Assembly (NCBI GenBank): GCA_048594645.1
Contig: JBMDWR010000167.1
Coordinates: 1-55,658 of the forward strand
Reading direction: 5' to 3'
DNA: 55,658 bases
Origin: Actinomycetota bacterium
GTDB taxonomy: Bacteria > Actinomycetota > UBA4738 > HRBIN12
Below, piece by piece: positions 23,222 through 27,105 of this stretch. The position numbers and the translations under genes were made by a program. Within the stretch, counting starts at the first letter, position 1. Each line of letters starts with the position of its first letter. A model generated the notes under the pieces. It had not been told where the DNA came from. It saw nothing but the letters and a program-made list of their open reading frames with translations, and ran no database searches.

Positions 23222-23243
23222 GATATCTCAACGTCTAGATATC
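23222..23243. promoter_or_regulatory. palindromic operator copy 5 (GATATCT-CAACGTCT-AGATATC) overlapping a candidate promoter of the ubiD operon
   Basis: Perfect 7-bp arms, 46 nt upstream of the ubiD ATG. On the minus strand, TTGCAT (23264-23269), a 17-nt spacer and CATGAT (23241-23246) form a sigma-70-like promoter. Its -10 element overlaps the operator arm. Confidence 0.7.
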
Positions 23244-23286: not shown

Positions 23287-24519
23287 TCAGTCACCCTCGG
23301 GTTCGAGCAGCCGCACGCCGCGTGCTTCGCGCCGCCGGCCGACTTGGAGCACCTTCCCGACGAGGTCGGCCACGGGGAGGTCCCCGGCCTCCTCCACCCG
23401 CGTCCCGTCCAGCCGGACGCCACCGCCCGCGATCAGGCGTCGCGCCTCCGACGAGGACGAGGCGACACCGAGCGACGTGAGCAGGCGCGGCAGCCATACC
23501 ATCCCCTCGACGACGGCAGCGGCCGGTATGCGCGCCCCGTCGACGTCCCGAGGCACTGTTCGGTCCGCATGCGCTTCGTTGAACCGCTGCTCCGCCTCCG
23601 CACCGGCGCGCTCGCCTCGATACAGGTCGACGAGCTCTCGCGCGAGACGCTTCTTCTCCTCCCATGGGTCGAGCGAGGCCTCGCGCAGGCCGGCCGCGAC
23701 GCGTTCGGCCTCGGCCGGATCGCGGAAGAAGTCGAGCGTCAGCAACCGGTACTCGGCGATCGCCTCGTCCGGGATCCGTGTGAGCTTGCCGAACATGTCG
23801 TCCGGATCGTCGGTGATCCCGACGTAGTTGCCGAGCGACTGGCTCATCTTCTGCACGCCGTCGGTACCCACGAGGAGCGGCATCGTGAGGGCGACCTGGG
23901 GGTCCTGGCCGTACTCGCGCTGCAGGTCCCGCCCCACCAGGAGGTTGAACGTCTGGTCCCGGCCGCCGAGCTCGACGTCCGCCTCGACGGCGACGGAGTC
24001 CATGCCCTGGAGCAGCGGATAGAGGAACTCCAAGATCGAGATCGGCTTGCCCTGCGCGTACCTCTTGGCGAAGTCGTCGCGCTCGAGCATGCGGGCCACC
24101 GTGTACGAGGCGGTCAGCCGAAGGATCTCCTCCATGCCCAACGGCTCCAGCCATTCGGCGTTGAACCGGACCTCGGTGAGATCGCGGTCGAGCACGATCC
24201 AGAACTGGTCGAGCAGCCGGTCGGCGTAGCCGCGCACCTCCTCCTTCGACAGGCGTGGGCGCGCGTCGGTCCGGCCGGACGGGTCGCCCACCCTGGCGGT
24301 GAAGTCGCCGACGATCAGCACCGGGACGTGCCCCGCGTCCTGGAACTGCCTGAGCTTGCGAAGCACGACCGCCCACCCGAGCGTGACCTCGGGGGCGGTC
24401 GGGTCGAGCCCGAGCTTCACCCGAAGCTGCCGGCCGAGCTCGAGCTTGCTCCGGAGGCCCTCGGCGGGCACGACCTCGGCCCGCCCGGCGAGCAGCATCG
24501 GCAGGTCGTCGGGACCCAT
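23287..24519 (-). CDS. tyrS: tyrosine--tRNA ligase homolog (Thermus-type, with C-terminal S4-like domain), non-canonical signature motifs
   Basis: 410 aa, collinear with bacterial TyrRS (LGLDPTAPE..., LIVGDFTARVGDPSGR, YPLLQGMDSVA...ELGG.DQ.FNLL, C-terminal S4-like ...ARRLIAGGGVRLDG). TLGW stands at the HIGH position (24373-24384) and KMSQS at the KMSKS position (23836-23850). Confidence 0.85.
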   Translation of the reverse strand: MGPDDLPMLLAGRAEVVPAEGLRSKLELGRQLRVKLGLDPTAPEVTLGWAVVLRKLRQFQDAGHVPVLIVGDFTARVGDPSGRTDARPRLSKEEVRGYADRLLDQFWIVLDRDLTEVRFNAEWLEPLGMEEILRLTASYTVARMLERDDFAKRYAQGKPISILEFLYPLLQGMDSVAVEADVELGGRDQTFNLLVGRDLQREYGQDPQVALTMPLLVGTDGVQKMSQSLGNYVGITDDPDDMFGKLTRIPDEAIAEYRLLTLDFFRDPAEAERVAAGLREASLDPWEEKKRLARELVDLYRGERAGAEAEQRFNEAHADRTVPRDVDGARIPAAAVVEGMVWLPRLLTSLGVASSSSEARRLIAGGGVRLDGTRVEEAGDLPVADLVGKVLQVGRRREARGVRLLEPEGD

Positions 24520-24636: not shown

Positions 24637-27105
24637 ATGGCCGCCCGCTCGCGGACCCTCGTGGTCGGCGTGTTCGTCTTCGTCCTCGCCGCCTCGGCCT
24701 GCGACCTCCCGACGCTGCGGGAGGCTCGCGAAGATGCGGACGCTCTGCCCGAGACGTCGTTCATCTACTCGGCCGACGGCGCGCTGATCACGTCGCTACA
24801 TGCCGGCGAGAACCGGGTGCCGGTGCGATCGACGAAGATCCCGGAGGTCGTCCGCAACGCGGTCGTCGCGATCGAGGATCAGCGGTTCTACGACCACACG
24901 GGCGTCGACCTGCGGGCGCTCCTTCGCGCCGCGTACAGAGACGTCACGACGGGCGAGGTGGTCGAGGGCGGGTCCACGATCACGCAGCAGCTCGTCAAGA
25001 AGCTCTACGTTGGCGACGAGAAGACCGTCGCCCGCAAGGTCCGTGAGGCATACCTAGCGTGGCAGCTCGAAGAGCGGATGAGCAAGGAGCGCATCCTCAC
25101 CCGGTACCTCAACACCGTCTACTTCGGGAACGGCGCCTACGGGATCCGAGCGGCGGCCGAGACCTACTTCGACATCGAACCGCTCGAGCTCAACCTAGCG
25201 CAGTCGGCGCTGCTCGCCGGCCTGATACGCGCGCCGGTCGACTACGACCCGGTGACGCACCCGGTGAGGGCCGAGCGCCGTCGCGACCACGTCCTCGAGC
25301 TGATGCTCGGGCTCGGCACGATCGACCAGGCCGCGTACCAGCGTGCGACCTCGTCCCGGATCAAGCTCCATCTCCGCCAGGACGAGATGCGCTACGCGGC
25401 GCCCTATTTCGTCGACTACGTGAAGGAGTGGTTCCTGTCGAACCCGCGGTTCGGCGAGACGCCCGAGGAGCGATACGACCTCCTGTTCAAGGGCGGGCTT
25501 CGCATCGTGACGACGTTGGACATGAGGATGCAGCGGGCGGCCGAGCGCGCGATCTCGTCGGTGCTCACCGAACCCGGCGACCCCTACGGTGCGTTGACGG
25601 CGATCGACCCCCGGACGGGGCAGGTCCGTGCGATGGTCGGCGGGCGCGACTACTGGAACGAGCATGACCGTTTCGCGCGGATCAACCTCGCGACGGGCGG
25701 GAGCACGGGAAGGCAGGCGGGTTCGGCGTTCAAGCCGTTCGCCCTCGTCGCGGCGCTCGAGCACGGCATCACGCGTTCCCAGCCGCTGAACGGCTCGAGC
25801 GCCCACATCCTCCTCGACAACGGGGCGTACTGGGATCCTCGCAACGCCGAAGGGAGCGGCTACGGCACGATCTCGCTCGAGAGTGCGACGGTGAACTCCG
25901 TGAACATCGCGTACGCGAACCTCCTGGAGGTGATCGGCGACGGCGACACCTACGCCGGTGCGGCGGCGGTCGTCCAGACGGCCGAACGCATGGGGATCCG
26001 CTGCTGCCCGCGAACGACCGAGCCGAACGAGCCGCTCGCGGGCGTCCCTTCGGCCGTCCTGGGCGTGAACGAGGTGAGCACGCTCGAGATGGCCTCGGCC
26101 TTCGGCACGCTTGCGTACCTCGGTCGCCACGTGCAGCCGATCCCCGTGATCTCGATCACGAACTCGGACGGCGAGCAGATCTACCAGGCACCGCCGAAGA
26201 TCCACCAGGTCGTCGAACCGTCGATCGCCGCGGAGGCCATCGACGTCCTGAAGGGTGTGGTGCAGTCCGGAACCGGCGTCGGCGCCAACATCGGCCGGCC
26301 CCAGTTCGGCAAGACCGGGACGGCGCAGAACGCCAGCGATGCGTGGTTCGTCGGCGCAGTCCCACAGCTGTCGACGGCGGTGTGGGTCGGCTTCCCCGAG
26401 GGGCAGATCCCGATGTGCTGCGGGAACGTGCGGATCTCGACCGTGTATGGGGGAACCTGGCCCGCGACGATCTGGCGGACGTTCATGCTCGCGGCCACCC
26501 GTAACATGCCGGTCAAGGAGTTCGGGACGGCGCCGGAGGTCGACATCGTGACGCTCCGTATCGACGTCACGCGCGGGTGCCTGGCGAACCGGTTCACGTC
26601 GCCGGACGACATCCAGGTCTTCCGGTACGTGGCCGGCTCCGAACCCACGCTCGAGATCTGCACGGAGCCGTCGTCCTATCAGCGCTTGGTGGTGCCGTCG
26701 GTCGTGGGGCTCCAGCGACAGGCGGCCGTCTCCACGCTACGCGCGGCGGGATTCACCGTGGCGATAATCTCCGCCCCATCAAACGAACCGGTGGGGACGG
26801 TGATCGCGCAAGACCCCCTCAGTGGCTCAGGCCTGATCCAGACGGGAACCGTCACGATCACCGTCTCGGAGGGCGAGCTCGAGCCCGAGCGCGTCGCCGT
26901 CCCCGACGTCGTTGGGATGACCCGCGGGGCGGCGGAGGCGGCGCTCGGGCGCGCCGGGTTCAAGGTGTCGGTGTCGATGTCGCAGGAGTGTGACCCAGCC
27001 GATCCCTCGTGCGACTACCGACAGGGCGTGGTGTGGTCGCAGACCCCGAGCGGCGGGGCGCGGGCCGAGGAGGGGTCCACGGTCAGGATCGTCGTCAACC
27101 CGTAG
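24637..27105 (+). CDS. class A penicillin-binding protein (glycosyltransferase GT51 + transpeptidase) with two C-terminal PASTA domains
   Basis: 822 aa with an N-terminal membrane anchor. GT51 motifs AIEDQRFYDHTGVD and GGSTITQQL are present. The transpeptidase motifs are SAFKPF (SxxK) and KTGT. There are two PASTA-like repeats (VPSVVGLQRQAAVSTLRAAGF..., VPDVVGMTRGAAEAALGRAGF...). Confidence 0.9.
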   Translation: MAARSRTLVVGVFVFVLAASACDLPTLREAREDADALPETSFIYSADGALITSLHAGENRVPVRSTKIPEVVRNAVVAIEDQRFYDHTGVDLRALLRAAYRDVTTGEVVEGGSTITQQLVKKLYVGDEKTVARKVREAYLAWQLEERMSKERILTRYLNTVYFGNGAYGIRAAAETYFDIEPLELNLAQSALLAGLIRAPVDYDPVTHPVRAERRRDHVLELMLGLGTIDQAAYQRATSSRIKLHLRQDEMRYAAPYFVDYVKEWFLSNPRFGETPEERYDLLFKGGLRIVTTLDMRMQRAAERAISSVLTEPGDPYGALTAIDPRTGQVRAMVGGRDYWNEHDRFARINLATGGSTGRQAGSAFKPFALVAALEHGITRSQPLNGSSAHILLDNGAYWDPRNAEGSGYGTISLESATVNSVNIAYANLLEVIGDGDTYAGAAAVVQTAERMGIRCCPRTTEPNEPLAGVPSAVLGVNEVSTLEMASAFGTLAYLGRHVQPIPVISITNSDGEQIYQAPPKIHQVVEPSIAAEAIDVLKGVVQSGTGVGANIGRPQFGKTGTAQNASDAWFVGAVPQLSTAVWVGFPEGQIPMCCGNVRISTVYGGTWPATIWRTFMLAATRNMPVKEFGTAPEVDIVTLRIDVTRGCLANRFTSPDDIQVFRYVAGSEPTLEICTEPSSYQRLVVPSVVGLQRQAAVSTLRAAGFTVAIISAPSNEPVGTVIAQDPLSGSGLIQTGTVTITVSEGELEPERVAVPDVVGMTRGAAEAALGRAGFKVSVSMSQECDPADPSCDYRQGVVWSQTPSGGARAEEGSTVRIVVNP

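What the first reader, a model, noticed from the sequence alone, without database searches (positions are those of the whole stretch)
23287..24519. TyrRS homolog with both class I signature motifs altered (HIGH -> TLGW, KMSKS -> KMSQS)
The protein is collinear with Thermus-type bacterial TyrRS and highly similar to it as I recall the sequence, including the C-terminal S4-like domain. At the HIGH position the sequence reads T-L-G-W (ACG CTC GGG TGG, 24373-24384), where H-[LIV]-G-H is expected. The KMSKS loop reads K-M-S-Q-S (23836-23850), so the second lysine is missing. The GG-T-DQ segment reads GGRDQ. These residues stabilise the transition state of tyrosine activation in characterised TyrRS enzymes. 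The His-to-Thr and His-to-Trp changes each require two to three nucleotide substitutions, so they are not sequencing noise. Two explanations are possible. This may be the organism's only TyrRS and work with unusual catalytic residues. Or it may be a paralog that has lost or changed aminoacylation activity (regulatory, tRNA-binding or other chemistry). It is co-directional with the ubiD operon and lies immediately upstream of it.
Basis: partly seen in the sequence, partly recalled or inferred. Interest (0 to 1): 0.6.

Follow-up and report, generated by a model that had tools for sequence, protein, structure and literature searches.

The report
Sole TyrRS with Trp/Gln active site
This is the organism's only tyrosine-charging enzyme; it replaces three textbook ATP-handling residues (His, His, Lys) with Thr, Trp and Gln, and related species carry either this form or the ordinary one at the same chromosomal site.

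Summary
The ORF at 23287-24519 (-) is a 410-aa Thermus-type TyrRS that reads TLGW for HIGH and KMSQS for KMSKS. It is not a degenerate paralog. The genome and 40 relatives each hold only one TyrRS and one TrpRS gene. Five other carriers show the same, three of them single-record Acidimicrobiia chromosome assemblies. The tyrosine pocket, the Lys/Arg loop, the first Lys, the S4 domain and a normal bacterial tRNA-Tyr are all present.

Trp at HIGH-4 goes with Gln at KMSKS-4 in 143 of 143 sequences. Three packing positions change with them: 45 to Val, 102 from Tyr to an aliphatic residue, and 106 to Phe. The set occurs in separate clades of this Actinomycetota class, Acidimicrobiia, Armatimonadota and Chloroflexota. 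A single origin is rejected once the trait columns are removed (AU p = 9e-5), but not with them included (p = 0.135).

Within this class, 108 genomes carry W/Q and 128 carry H/K. The two forms almost never share a genome, both occur within single genera, and both sit beside the same PBP gene. This is a homeoallele pattern.

No searchable paper mentions KMSQS. The scan already found this variant on other DNA (e1-5088339, e1-4381896, e1-4998599). I rate it a new variant of a known enzyme. Activity is untested.

The parts
23287..24519 (-). tyrS, a 410-aa type-2 (Thermus/TyrZ-like) tyrosyl-tRNA synthetase and the sole TyrRS of the genome
   Evidence: ORF. TIGR00234 scores 297.9 bits against a cut-off of 113.8. 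PDB 1h3e matches at E 3.9e-99. It is the only TyrRS-like gene in G000.
23569..24432 (-). Class I catalytic (Rossmann) domain, aa 30-317
   Evidence: PF00579 at E 1.2e-66. The AF2 model has mean pLDDT 93.6.
24373..24384 (-). HIGH-motif position reading T46-L47-G48-W49
   Evidence: Codons. It aligns with HLGH of 1h3e and with H45/H48 of 2ts1. W is invariant in every W/Q clade.
23836..23850 (-). KMSKS-loop position reading K224-M-S-Q227-S228, with the second lysine replaced by Gln
   Evidence: Q accompanies W in 143 of 143 sequences.
24385..24387 (-). V45, a residue coupled to the W/Q state (Leu or Ile in H/K enzymes)
   Evidence: V is 100% in three W/Q clades and I in the fourth. In non-W enzymes L plus I make up 94%.
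24202..24216 (-). Helix segment L102-L-D-Q-F106. Positions 102 and 106 are coupled to the W/Q state (Tyr and Ala/Val in H/K enzymes).
   Evidence: position 102 is Y in 91% of non-W enzymes and L/V/I in all four W/Q clades. Position 106 is mostly F against A/V. The two positions are i and i+4 on the model's helix 92-106.
23953..23967 (-). GGRDQ (the GGxDQ segment). D188 and Q189 are conserved; the R is at a freely variable position.
   Evidence: Q189 is invariant in alignment A1.
23383..23496 (-). C-terminal S4-like tRNA-binding domain, aa 342-379
   Evidence: PF01479 at E 1.4e-08 and PF22421 weakly. It is collinear with the C-terminal domain of 1h3e.
24637..27105 (+). Divergently transcribed class A penicillin-binding protein gene. 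It is the conserved neighbour that marks the tyrS locus in both allele types.
   Evidence: ORF. Its N-terminus lies next to tyrS in about 60 genomes of the class, whether they carry W/Q or H/K.

Best explanation
This is the organism's single, functional housekeeping tyrosyl-tRNA synthetase. It is a natural variant in which the ATP/pyrophosphate-handling layer of the class I active site has been rebuilt as one coupled set. HIGH reads TLGW, the second lysine of KMSKS is Gln, and three packing residues have changed: V45, L102 in place of Tyr, and F106 in place of Ala.

Shown here: it is the sole TyrRS; the tyrosine pocket, the Lys/Arg mobile loop, the first KMSKS lysine, the S4 domain and the cognate tRNA-Tyr are intact; the W-Q coupling is strict; the set recurs in several phyla; and it alternates with a canonical allele at the same locus.

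Inferred: tyrosine is still activated with ATP. Transition-state stabilisation would come from K224, R83/R87 and T41, with T46 acting as Thr does in the TIGN motif of TrpRS. The indole N-H of Trp and the amide of Gln would replace the His and Lys hydrogen-bond donors. A bound cation may supply the lost charge, as I recall for K+ in human TyrRS (KMSSS).

Also inferred: the Trp side chain packs against helix 92-106, which would explain why Tyr102 shrinks and residue 106 becomes aromatic.

The W/Q and H/K forms behave as homeoalleles, swapped by recombination between related species. In vivo they are therefore functionally interchangeable.
For: Identity: TIGR00234 scores 297.9 bits against a cut-off of 113.8, with PF00579 and S4 domains. 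Alignment to T. thermophilus TyrRS 1h3e gives E 3.9e-99.

Sole copy: G000 (90.4% complete) holds only two PF00579 genes, this one and a TrpRS. The 40 relatives show the same; extra matches are frameshift fragments. Five other W/Q genomes also have two such genes each, including three Acidimicrobiia assemblies deposited as single chromosomes of 3.7-5.1 Mb.

Conserved catalytic residues, in B. stearothermophilus numbering: T40, D78, K82 (Arg here), R86, Y169, Q173, D176, Q195 and K230 are all present.

Substrate tRNA: tRNA-Tyr(GTA) is 84 nt, with a long variable arm, G1-C72 and A73.

Selection: the 119 closest homologs all keep TLGW + KMSQS.

Coupling: W goes with Q in 143 of 143 sequences, and H goes with K in 138 of 140. 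Positions 45, 102 and 106 change in the same way in four clades.

Recurrence: there are separate clades in the own class, Acidimicrobiia, Armatimonadota and Chloroflexota. The AU test rejects one clade when the trait columns are removed (dlnL 132, p = 9e-5).

Allele behaviour in the class: 108 genomes are W/Q and 128 are H/K, with only one genome holding both. Both states occur within genera g16, g40 and others. Both lie next to the PBP gene. Identity between the allele types within a genus (61-66%) is lower than W-to-W identity between genera (67%).

Precedents: TyrRS homeoalleles in a shared syntenic context (PMC3191353); functional IleRS2 with a non-canonical HIGH motif (PMC10485003); human TyrRS with KMSSS (PMC7613620).
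Against: No biochemical data exist for any W/Q enzyme, so activity is inferred from genomics alone.

The genome is a 427-contig MAG at 90% completeness. Absence of a second TyrRS here rests mainly on the relatives and on the single-record chromosome assemblies of other carriers.

With all columns included, the AU test does not reject a single origin of W/Q (p = 0.135). The sign test on independent pairs has only 4 pairs (p = 0.125).

I could not read model coordinates, so the contact between W49 and helix 92-106, and between W49 and Q227, is unverified.

The roles assigned to H45, H48 and K233, and the K+ story for human TyrRS, come from my memory of the Fersht and First laboratories' work. 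I could not retrieve those papers here.
Confidence: 0.85

Rival explanations
1. The W/Q allele is an inhibitor-tolerant form of TyrRS. Remodelling HIGH and KMSKS would lower affinity for natural Tyr-AMP or ATP-site mimics, or block 'reaction hijacking' by nucleoside sulfamates, at some catalytic cost. Balancing or fluctuating selection would then keep both alleles circulating in the class. This reading refines the best explanation rather than excluding it.
For: The two allele classes are older than the genera yet are still exchanged at one locus. This pattern has been discussed for antibiotic-linked aaRS homeoalleles (PMC3191353). A non-canonical HIGH motif in IleRS2 raises the mupirocin Ki up to 1000-fold (PMC10485003). 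Susceptibility of TyrRS to a sulfamate depends on how the KMSKS loop and the HIGH histidine are ordered, and human KMSSS TyrRS is the less susceptible enzyme (PMC7613620). The same residue set evolved convergently in several phyla, which suggests a shared selective agent.
Against: No inhibitor, producer or biosynthetic cluster has been linked to these lineages. No kinetic or inhibition data exist. Epistatic lock-in after neutral drift would give the same strict coupling. On an RpoB tree of genus g16 the states need only about 2 changes, so exchange is not frequent.
Confidence: 0.25
2. The variant is a neutral, epistatically locked alternative solution. One permissive change (an aromatic residue or Arg at HIGH-4, or loss of the second Lys) made the partner change nearly neutral or compensatory. 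The state then became hard to reverse. Its patchy distribution would reflect ordinary aaRS gene replacement with no special selective agent.
For: Candidate intermediates exist in nature: TLGH+KMSKS is widespread in the class. HLGF+KMSKS, HLGY+KM(S/G)QS, HxGR+KMS(S/T)S and HIGH+KMSQS also occur. The TrpRS of this class shows a lineage-fixed KMSTT and three allele classes of its own, independent of the TyrRS state. So loss of the second Lys and aaRS swapping are both commonplace here.
Against: The same five-position set was reached in at least four clades, which is more than drift easily predicts. No W+K or other half-state of the W/Q pair appears among 288 sequences.
Confidence: 0.45
3. The gene is a catalytically impaired TyrRS-like paralog with a regulatory, tRNA-binding or other chemical role, and the real TyrRS was missed.
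For: Three residues that I recall as important for transition-state stabilisation in B. stearothermophilus TyrRS are replaced. The MAG is only 90% complete.
Against: No second TyrRS was found in G000, in 40 relatives (18 of them at least 90% complete) or in 5 further carriers, three of them single-record chromosome assemblies. W/Q and H/K are mutually exclusive per genome and occupy the same locus. The substrate pocket and the tRNA-binding domain are fully conserved.
Confidence: 0.03

Closest known systems
Thermus thermophilus TyrRS (PDB 1h3e/1h3f) and other type-2 (TyrZ-like) bacterial TyrRS (6bqy, 6byq)
   Same: The two are collinear over aa 5-400 at E 3.9e-99. They share the domain order (Rossmann domain, helical domain, S4-like domain), the tyrosine pocket, the GDPSG(K/R)xxxR loop and the first KMSKS lysine.
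   Different: HLGH becomes TLGW and KMSKS becomes KMSQS. The Tth residues that align with positions 102 and 106 (Tyr and Ala in 'AKTYVAQA') are Leu and Phe here.
Bacillus stearothermophilus TyrRS (2ts1), the classical model for transition-state stabilisation
   Same: T40, D78, K82/R86, Y169, Q173, D176, Q195 and K230 all have conserved counterparts.
   Different: H45, H48 and K233, which I recall as transition-state or ribose/pyrophosphate ligands, are Thr, Trp and Gln here. The two enzymes belong to different TyrRS subtypes.
Archaeal/eukaryotic TyrRS with KMSSS (for example human TyrRS, 222-KMSSS-226) and bacterial TrpRS with TIGN
   Same: These are bona fide class Ic synthetases that lack the second lysine (PMC7613620) or have Thr at HIGH-1 (6dfu alignment). 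They show that each single deviation is compatible with activity.
   Different: None combines Thr at HIGH-1, Trp at HIGH-4 and Gln at KMSKS-4. In those lineages the deviations are fixed, not dimorphic.
IleRS2 with the non-canonical G/AXHH motif (Brkic et al. 2023, PMC10485003)
   Same: It is a natural, fully active class I synthetase with a rewritten HIGH motif. The rewritten motif is accommodated only in one structural background and has recurred on the tree.
   Different: The enzyme differs, the change is a positional swap, and the phenotype (mupirocin hyper-resistance) has been demonstrated. No phenotype is known for W/Q TyrRS.
aaRS homeoalleles (Andam, Williams and Gogarten; PMC3191353)
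   Same: Divergent forms with the same function occur one per genome, patchily within higher taxa, and are replaced within a conserved syntenic context.
   Different: The described TyrRS homeoalleles are the two deep bacterial TyrRS types. Here both alleles are type 2, about 60% identical, and differ in their catalytic signature residues.

Membership tests
Tyrosyl-tRNA synthetase (TIGR00234; class Ic, PF00579) | Equivalog-level sequence homology over the full length | tested here: met
   TIGR00234 scores 297.9 bits against a cut-off of 113.8. PF00579 gives E 1.2e-66.
Tyrosyl-tRNA synthetase (TIGR00234; class Ic, PF00579) | Class I HIGH signature (H-x-G-H) | tested here: not met
   It reads T-L-G-W, so only the Gly is kept. 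The strict consensus is already broken in accepted members such as TrpRS with TIGN. I therefore treat this as a variant state, not as exclusion from the family.
Tyrosyl-tRNA synthetase (TIGR00234; class Ic, PF00579) | Class I KMSKS signature with both lysines | tested here: not met
   It reads K-M-S-Q-S. The first Lys is kept and the second is Gln. Human TyrRS reads KMSSS.
Tyrosyl-tRNA synthetase (TIGR00234; class Ic, PF00579) | Tyrosine-pocket residues (Bst D78, Y169, Q173, D176, Q195) | tested here: met
   D79, Y167, D174 and Q189 are invariant and Q171 is nearly invariant (at least 90%) in a 66-sequence alignment that includes this protein.
Tyrosyl-tRNA synthetase (TIGR00234; class Ic, PF00579) | Bacterial C-terminal S4-like domain, and a cognate tRNA-Tyr with a long variable arm | tested here: met
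   S4 domain at aa 342-379. tRNA-Tyr(GTA) of 84 nt with G1-C72 and A73.
Tyrosyl-tRNA synthetase (TIGR00234; class Ic, PF00579) | Tyrosine activation and tRNA-Tyr charging activity | not testable with these tools
   Activity is inferred from sole-copy status and from allele interchange with the canonical form.
aaRS homeoalleles | Two divergent forms, one per genome, both present within higher taxa | tested here: met
   There are 108 W/Q and 128 H/K genomes among 294, with one overlap that looks like contamination. Genera g16, g40, g30, g31, g32 and g38 are mixed.
aaRS homeoalleles | Replacement within a conserved syntenic context | tested here: met
   The N-terminus of the PBP1a gene lies divergently next to tyrS in both allele types.
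aaRS homeoalleles | Allele distribution conflicts with the organismal tree | tested here: inconclusive
   On the RpoB tree of genus g16, two changes are needed in all 200 bootstrap trees, but starred branches force only one. Only 13 genomes could be scored.
Catalytically dead aaRS-like paralog (pseudo-synthetase) | Coexists with a canonical synthetase of the same specificity | tested here: not met
   No second TyrRS was found in G000, in 40 relatives or in 5 further carriers.

The most novel reading that the evidence does not exclude
The Trp/Gln active site is a distinct, convergently evolved catalytic solution for tyrosine activation. It trades the His/Lys transition-state clamp for tolerance to natural adenylate-mimicking or reaction-hijacking inhibitors. 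It is held as a long-lived, trans-genus allele dimorphism with the canonical form, through homologous replacement at one locus.
Probability: 0.25. Interest if true: 0.8.

Novelty: new variant of a known kind. Interest (0 to 1): 0.6.

Why it matters
As I recall, TyrRS is the enzyme on which transition-state stabilisation by individual side chains was first measured, and H45, H48 and K233 were central to that work. Here nature supplies sole-copy enzymes that lack all three. The replacement set is strictly coupled, has been reached several times, and comes with matched canonical alleles from sister species at the same locus. That gives a ready-made natural double-mutant cycle for asking how class I synthetases can rebuild their ATP site. 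It also offers a test of whether signature-motif variants are resistance devices, as in IleRS2. On the practical side, motif-based annotation rules or inhibitor designs that assume HIGH/KMSKS would misjudge these widespread Actinomycetota, Armatimonadota and Chloroflexota enzymes.

Tried and rejected
1. An offset canonical HIGH or KMSKS motif is rejected. The alignments to 1h3e, 6bqy, 6byq and 2ts1 place TLGW and KMSQS exactly on the motifs.

2. A second TyrRS of any type in the genome: none was found with the protein itself or with PF00579.

3. GGRDQ as a compensating arginine is rejected. Only part of the genus has R; others have S, T or N.

4. A link between the TyrRS state and the TrpRS KMSTT variant is rejected. 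KMSTT occurs with both TyrRS states.

5. A T-box or other known leader RNA near tyrS: there are no Rfam matches at E up to 0.1. The simple promoter and terminator scans found nothing.

6. Literature searches for KMSQS, TLGW and HLGW found no relevant paper. The primary papers on H45/H48/K233 and on K+ in human TyrRS were not retrievable.

7. The mixture-model tree on 142 rows did not finish in time. I replaced it with LG+G4 and with smaller PMSF trees.

9. Model coordinates are not exposed by the tools, so residue-residue distances could not be measured.

Full report
**Observation.** The minus-strand ORF at 23287..24519 encodes 410 residues. It scores 297.9 bits on the tyrS equivalog model TIGR00234, whose cut-off is 113.8. 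It carries PF00579 at aa 30-317 and an S4 domain at aa 342-379. Its best solved relative is Thermus thermophilus TyrRS 1h3e (E 3.9e-99), collinear over residues 5-400.

In that alignment, and in those to 6bqy, 6byq and B. stearothermophilus 2ts1, HLGH/HIGH falls on T46-L-G-W49 (codons 24373-24384). KMSKS falls on K224-M-S-Q227-S228 (23836-23850). The GGRDQ remark has no weight, because that position varies freely in TyrRS and even within the genus.

**Is it the working TyrRS?** The assembly is G000: 427 contigs, 90.4% complete, 2.6% contamination. It contains two PF00579 genes, this one and a 333-aa TrpRS on another contig. A PF00579 search of 40 relatives gives the same answer everywhere: one TyrRS and one TrpRS, with extra matches being frameshift fragments in long-read assemblies.

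Five further carriers of the variant also hold exactly two such genes. They are three Acidimicrobiia assemblies deposited as single chromosomes of 3.7, 4.1 and 5.1 Mb, a 4.6-Mb Fimbriimonadaceae genome and a Dehalococcoidia MAG.

Every other residue that I recall as catalytic or substrate-binding in the B. stearothermophilus enzyme is conserved. These are T40, D78, K82 (Arg here), R86, Y169, Q173, D176, Q195 and K230. The genome encodes one tRNA-Tyr(GTA) of 84 nt with a long variable arm, G1-C72 and A73, which is the ordinary bacterial substrate. A degenerate paralog is therefore very unlikely.

**Conservation and coupling.** All 119 closest database homologs (73-86% identity, mostly labelled Actinomycetota MAGs) read TLGW + KMSQS. 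Among representatives clustered at 50% identity, the canonical pair dominates. Whenever HIGH-4 is Trp, however, KMSKS-4 is Gln.

In a 288-sequence alignment, W goes with Q in 143 of 143 cases and H goes with K in 138 of 140. Three more columns move with them in all four large W/Q clades:
- Position 45 is Val, against Leu or Ile in other enzymes.
- Position 102 is Leu, Val or Ile, against Tyr in 91% of other enzymes.
- Position 106 is mostly Phe, against Ala or Val.

Positions 102 and 106 are i and i+4 on the helix 92-106 of a confident AF2 model (pLDDT 93.6). This suggests that the Trp packs against that helix. That is an inference, because I could not read coordinates.

Other natural states exist and look like possible intermediates: TLGH+KMSKS, HLGF+KMSKS, HLGY+KM(S/G)QS, HxGR+KMS(S/T)S and HIGH+KMSQS.

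**Distribution and origins.** Of these, 73 are labelled Actinomycetota (40 of them Acidimicrobiia), 28 Armatimonadota (Fimbriimonadia, Chthonomonadia) and 3 Chloroflexota. A few carry odd bin labels.

On trees, W/Q forms separate clades. They are the window's own class (support 100), Acidimicrobiia (93-96), Armatimonadota (94-99) and Chloroflexota (99-100), plus two isolated representatives. The trees need 5-7 changes, and at least 4 are forced by well-supported branches.

The AU test does not reject a single W/Q clade when all columns are used (78 rows, dlnL 62, p = 0.135). It does reject it once the nine trait-linked columns are removed, as they should be (58 rows, dlnL 132, p = 9e-5). The row set for the second test was pruned of long branches after I had seen the first tree.

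I conclude that convergent origin is well supported, with that caveat. Independent-pair counts (4 of 4 in the same direction) are too few for significance.

**Dimorphism inside the class.** The window's class in the genome set holds 294 species-level genomes in one order. It is distinct from the Acidimicrobiia clade on the TyrRS tree. A G-W...KMSQS pattern hits 108 genomes and a G-H...KMSKS pattern hits 128. Only one genome is hit by both. In that genome, G172, the W/Q copy sits on a 2.2-kb contig and is closest to the window's genus, so it is probably contamination.

The window's genus is 22 of 23 W/Q. Genera g16 (11 against 19), g40 (11 against 17), g30, g31, g32 and g38 are mixed.

On a class-level tree, all W/Q sequences form one clade. 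Support is 100, or 89 with the trait columns removed. A sparser mixture-model tree splits the clade in two. Its sister is the H/K clade, which divides into HLGH and TLGH subclades. The mixed genera appear on both sides.

Within g16, W-W and H-H identities are 72%, but W-H identity is 61%. W alleles of g16 and g40 are 67% identical. The allele split is therefore older than these genera.

Both alleles lie divergently beside the same PBP1a gene. An RpoB tree of g16 needs two state changes in every bootstrap replicate, though well-supported branches force only one.

This is the homeoallele pattern described for aaRS genes, including replacement within a conserved syntenic context (PMC3191353). It implies that the two forms are interchangeable in vivo.

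**Mechanism.** What is shown is that a sole-copy enzyme has an intact substrate pocket and a rebuilt ATP-handling layer. The rest is inferred. K224, R83/R87, T41 and T46 would carry transition-state stabilisation. The Trp N-H and the Gln amide would replace lost hydrogen-bond donors. A cation may replace the lost charge, as I recall for K+ in human TyrRS, which reads KMSSS (PMC7613620).

Two precedents make an inhibitor-tolerance role plausible but untested. IleRS2 with G/AXHH is active and mupirocin-hyper-resistant (PMC10485003). Sensitivity of TyrRS to a nucleoside sulfamate depends on how the KMSKS loop and the HIGH histidine are ordered.

**Novelty and earlier notes.** No paper in the searchable library contains KMSQS. 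The scan has already flagged this variant on other genomes (e1-5088339, e1-4381896, e1-4998599). I re-derived the recurrence independently. New here are the Armatimonadota clade, the distinct clade of this class, the three coupled packing positions, the AU tests and the same-locus allele dimorphism.

**Unpublished genomes.** The tallies include unpublished genomes: G029, G037, G042, G043, G046, G048, G060, G065, G069, G112-G114, G126, G166, G175, G194-G196 and G284. Individual sequences from them were used only as one H/K row (L031) and one TrpRS row (L233). No conclusion depends on those rows.

Noticed in passing
G000 contig C311:436-1437 (-), outside the window (locus L003): The genome's TrpRS reads HLGN + KMSTT, so it too lacks the second KMSKS lysine. 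The motif is conserved in relatives at 67-76% identity, whatever their TyrRS state. Other genomes of the class, some in the same genus, carry TrpRS forms only about 52% or about 35% identical (HLGN/KMSKS, HIGN/KMSTS, HVGH/KMSKS). This looks like a second case of aaRS allele replacement.
   Followed up: partly
L027 (G040:C20, family f7 of the same order): This sole TyrRS reads TLGW + VMGQS. Both lysines of the KMSKS loop are missing, which is a more extreme state than in the window.
   Followed up: no
P0148, P0200, P0191, P0253, P0246, P0123, P0131 (representatives): Other coupled or partial states occur at the same two positions: HVGR+KMSSS and HIGR+KMSTS (the charge appears to move to HIGH-4), HLGY+KM(S/G)QS, HIGH+KMSQS and HLGF+KMSKS. 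They may be intermediates on the three-nucleotide path from His to Trp.
   Followed up: no
window 23222-23243, in the intergenic region between tyrS and the ubiD-like gene: A 22-bp inverted repeat (GATATCT..AGATATC) lies upstream of the ubiD-like gene. The ubiD cluster therefore probably has its own control and is not an operon with tyrS.
   Followed up: partly
G172: C241:375-916 and C163:1088-1629: This is the only genome of 294 with both a W/Q and an H/K tyrS. The W/Q copy sits on a 2.2-kb contig and is 76% identical to the window's protein, which is from another genus. That suggests bin contamination rather than true coexistence.
   Followed up: partly
P0161, P0171, P0196, P0200, P0211, P0216, P0253 (about 625-740 aa) and P0220 (952 aa): Several type-2 TyrRS representatives carry N-terminal extensions of 250-350 residues of unknown nature.
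   Followed up: no
L039, L051, L067, L131 (genome contigs): W/Q tyrS genes that fall in the Acidimicrobiia clade sit in bins labelled Boseongicola, Gammaproteobacteria and Acidobacteriota. This could be mis-binning or inter-phylum transfer.
   Followed up: no
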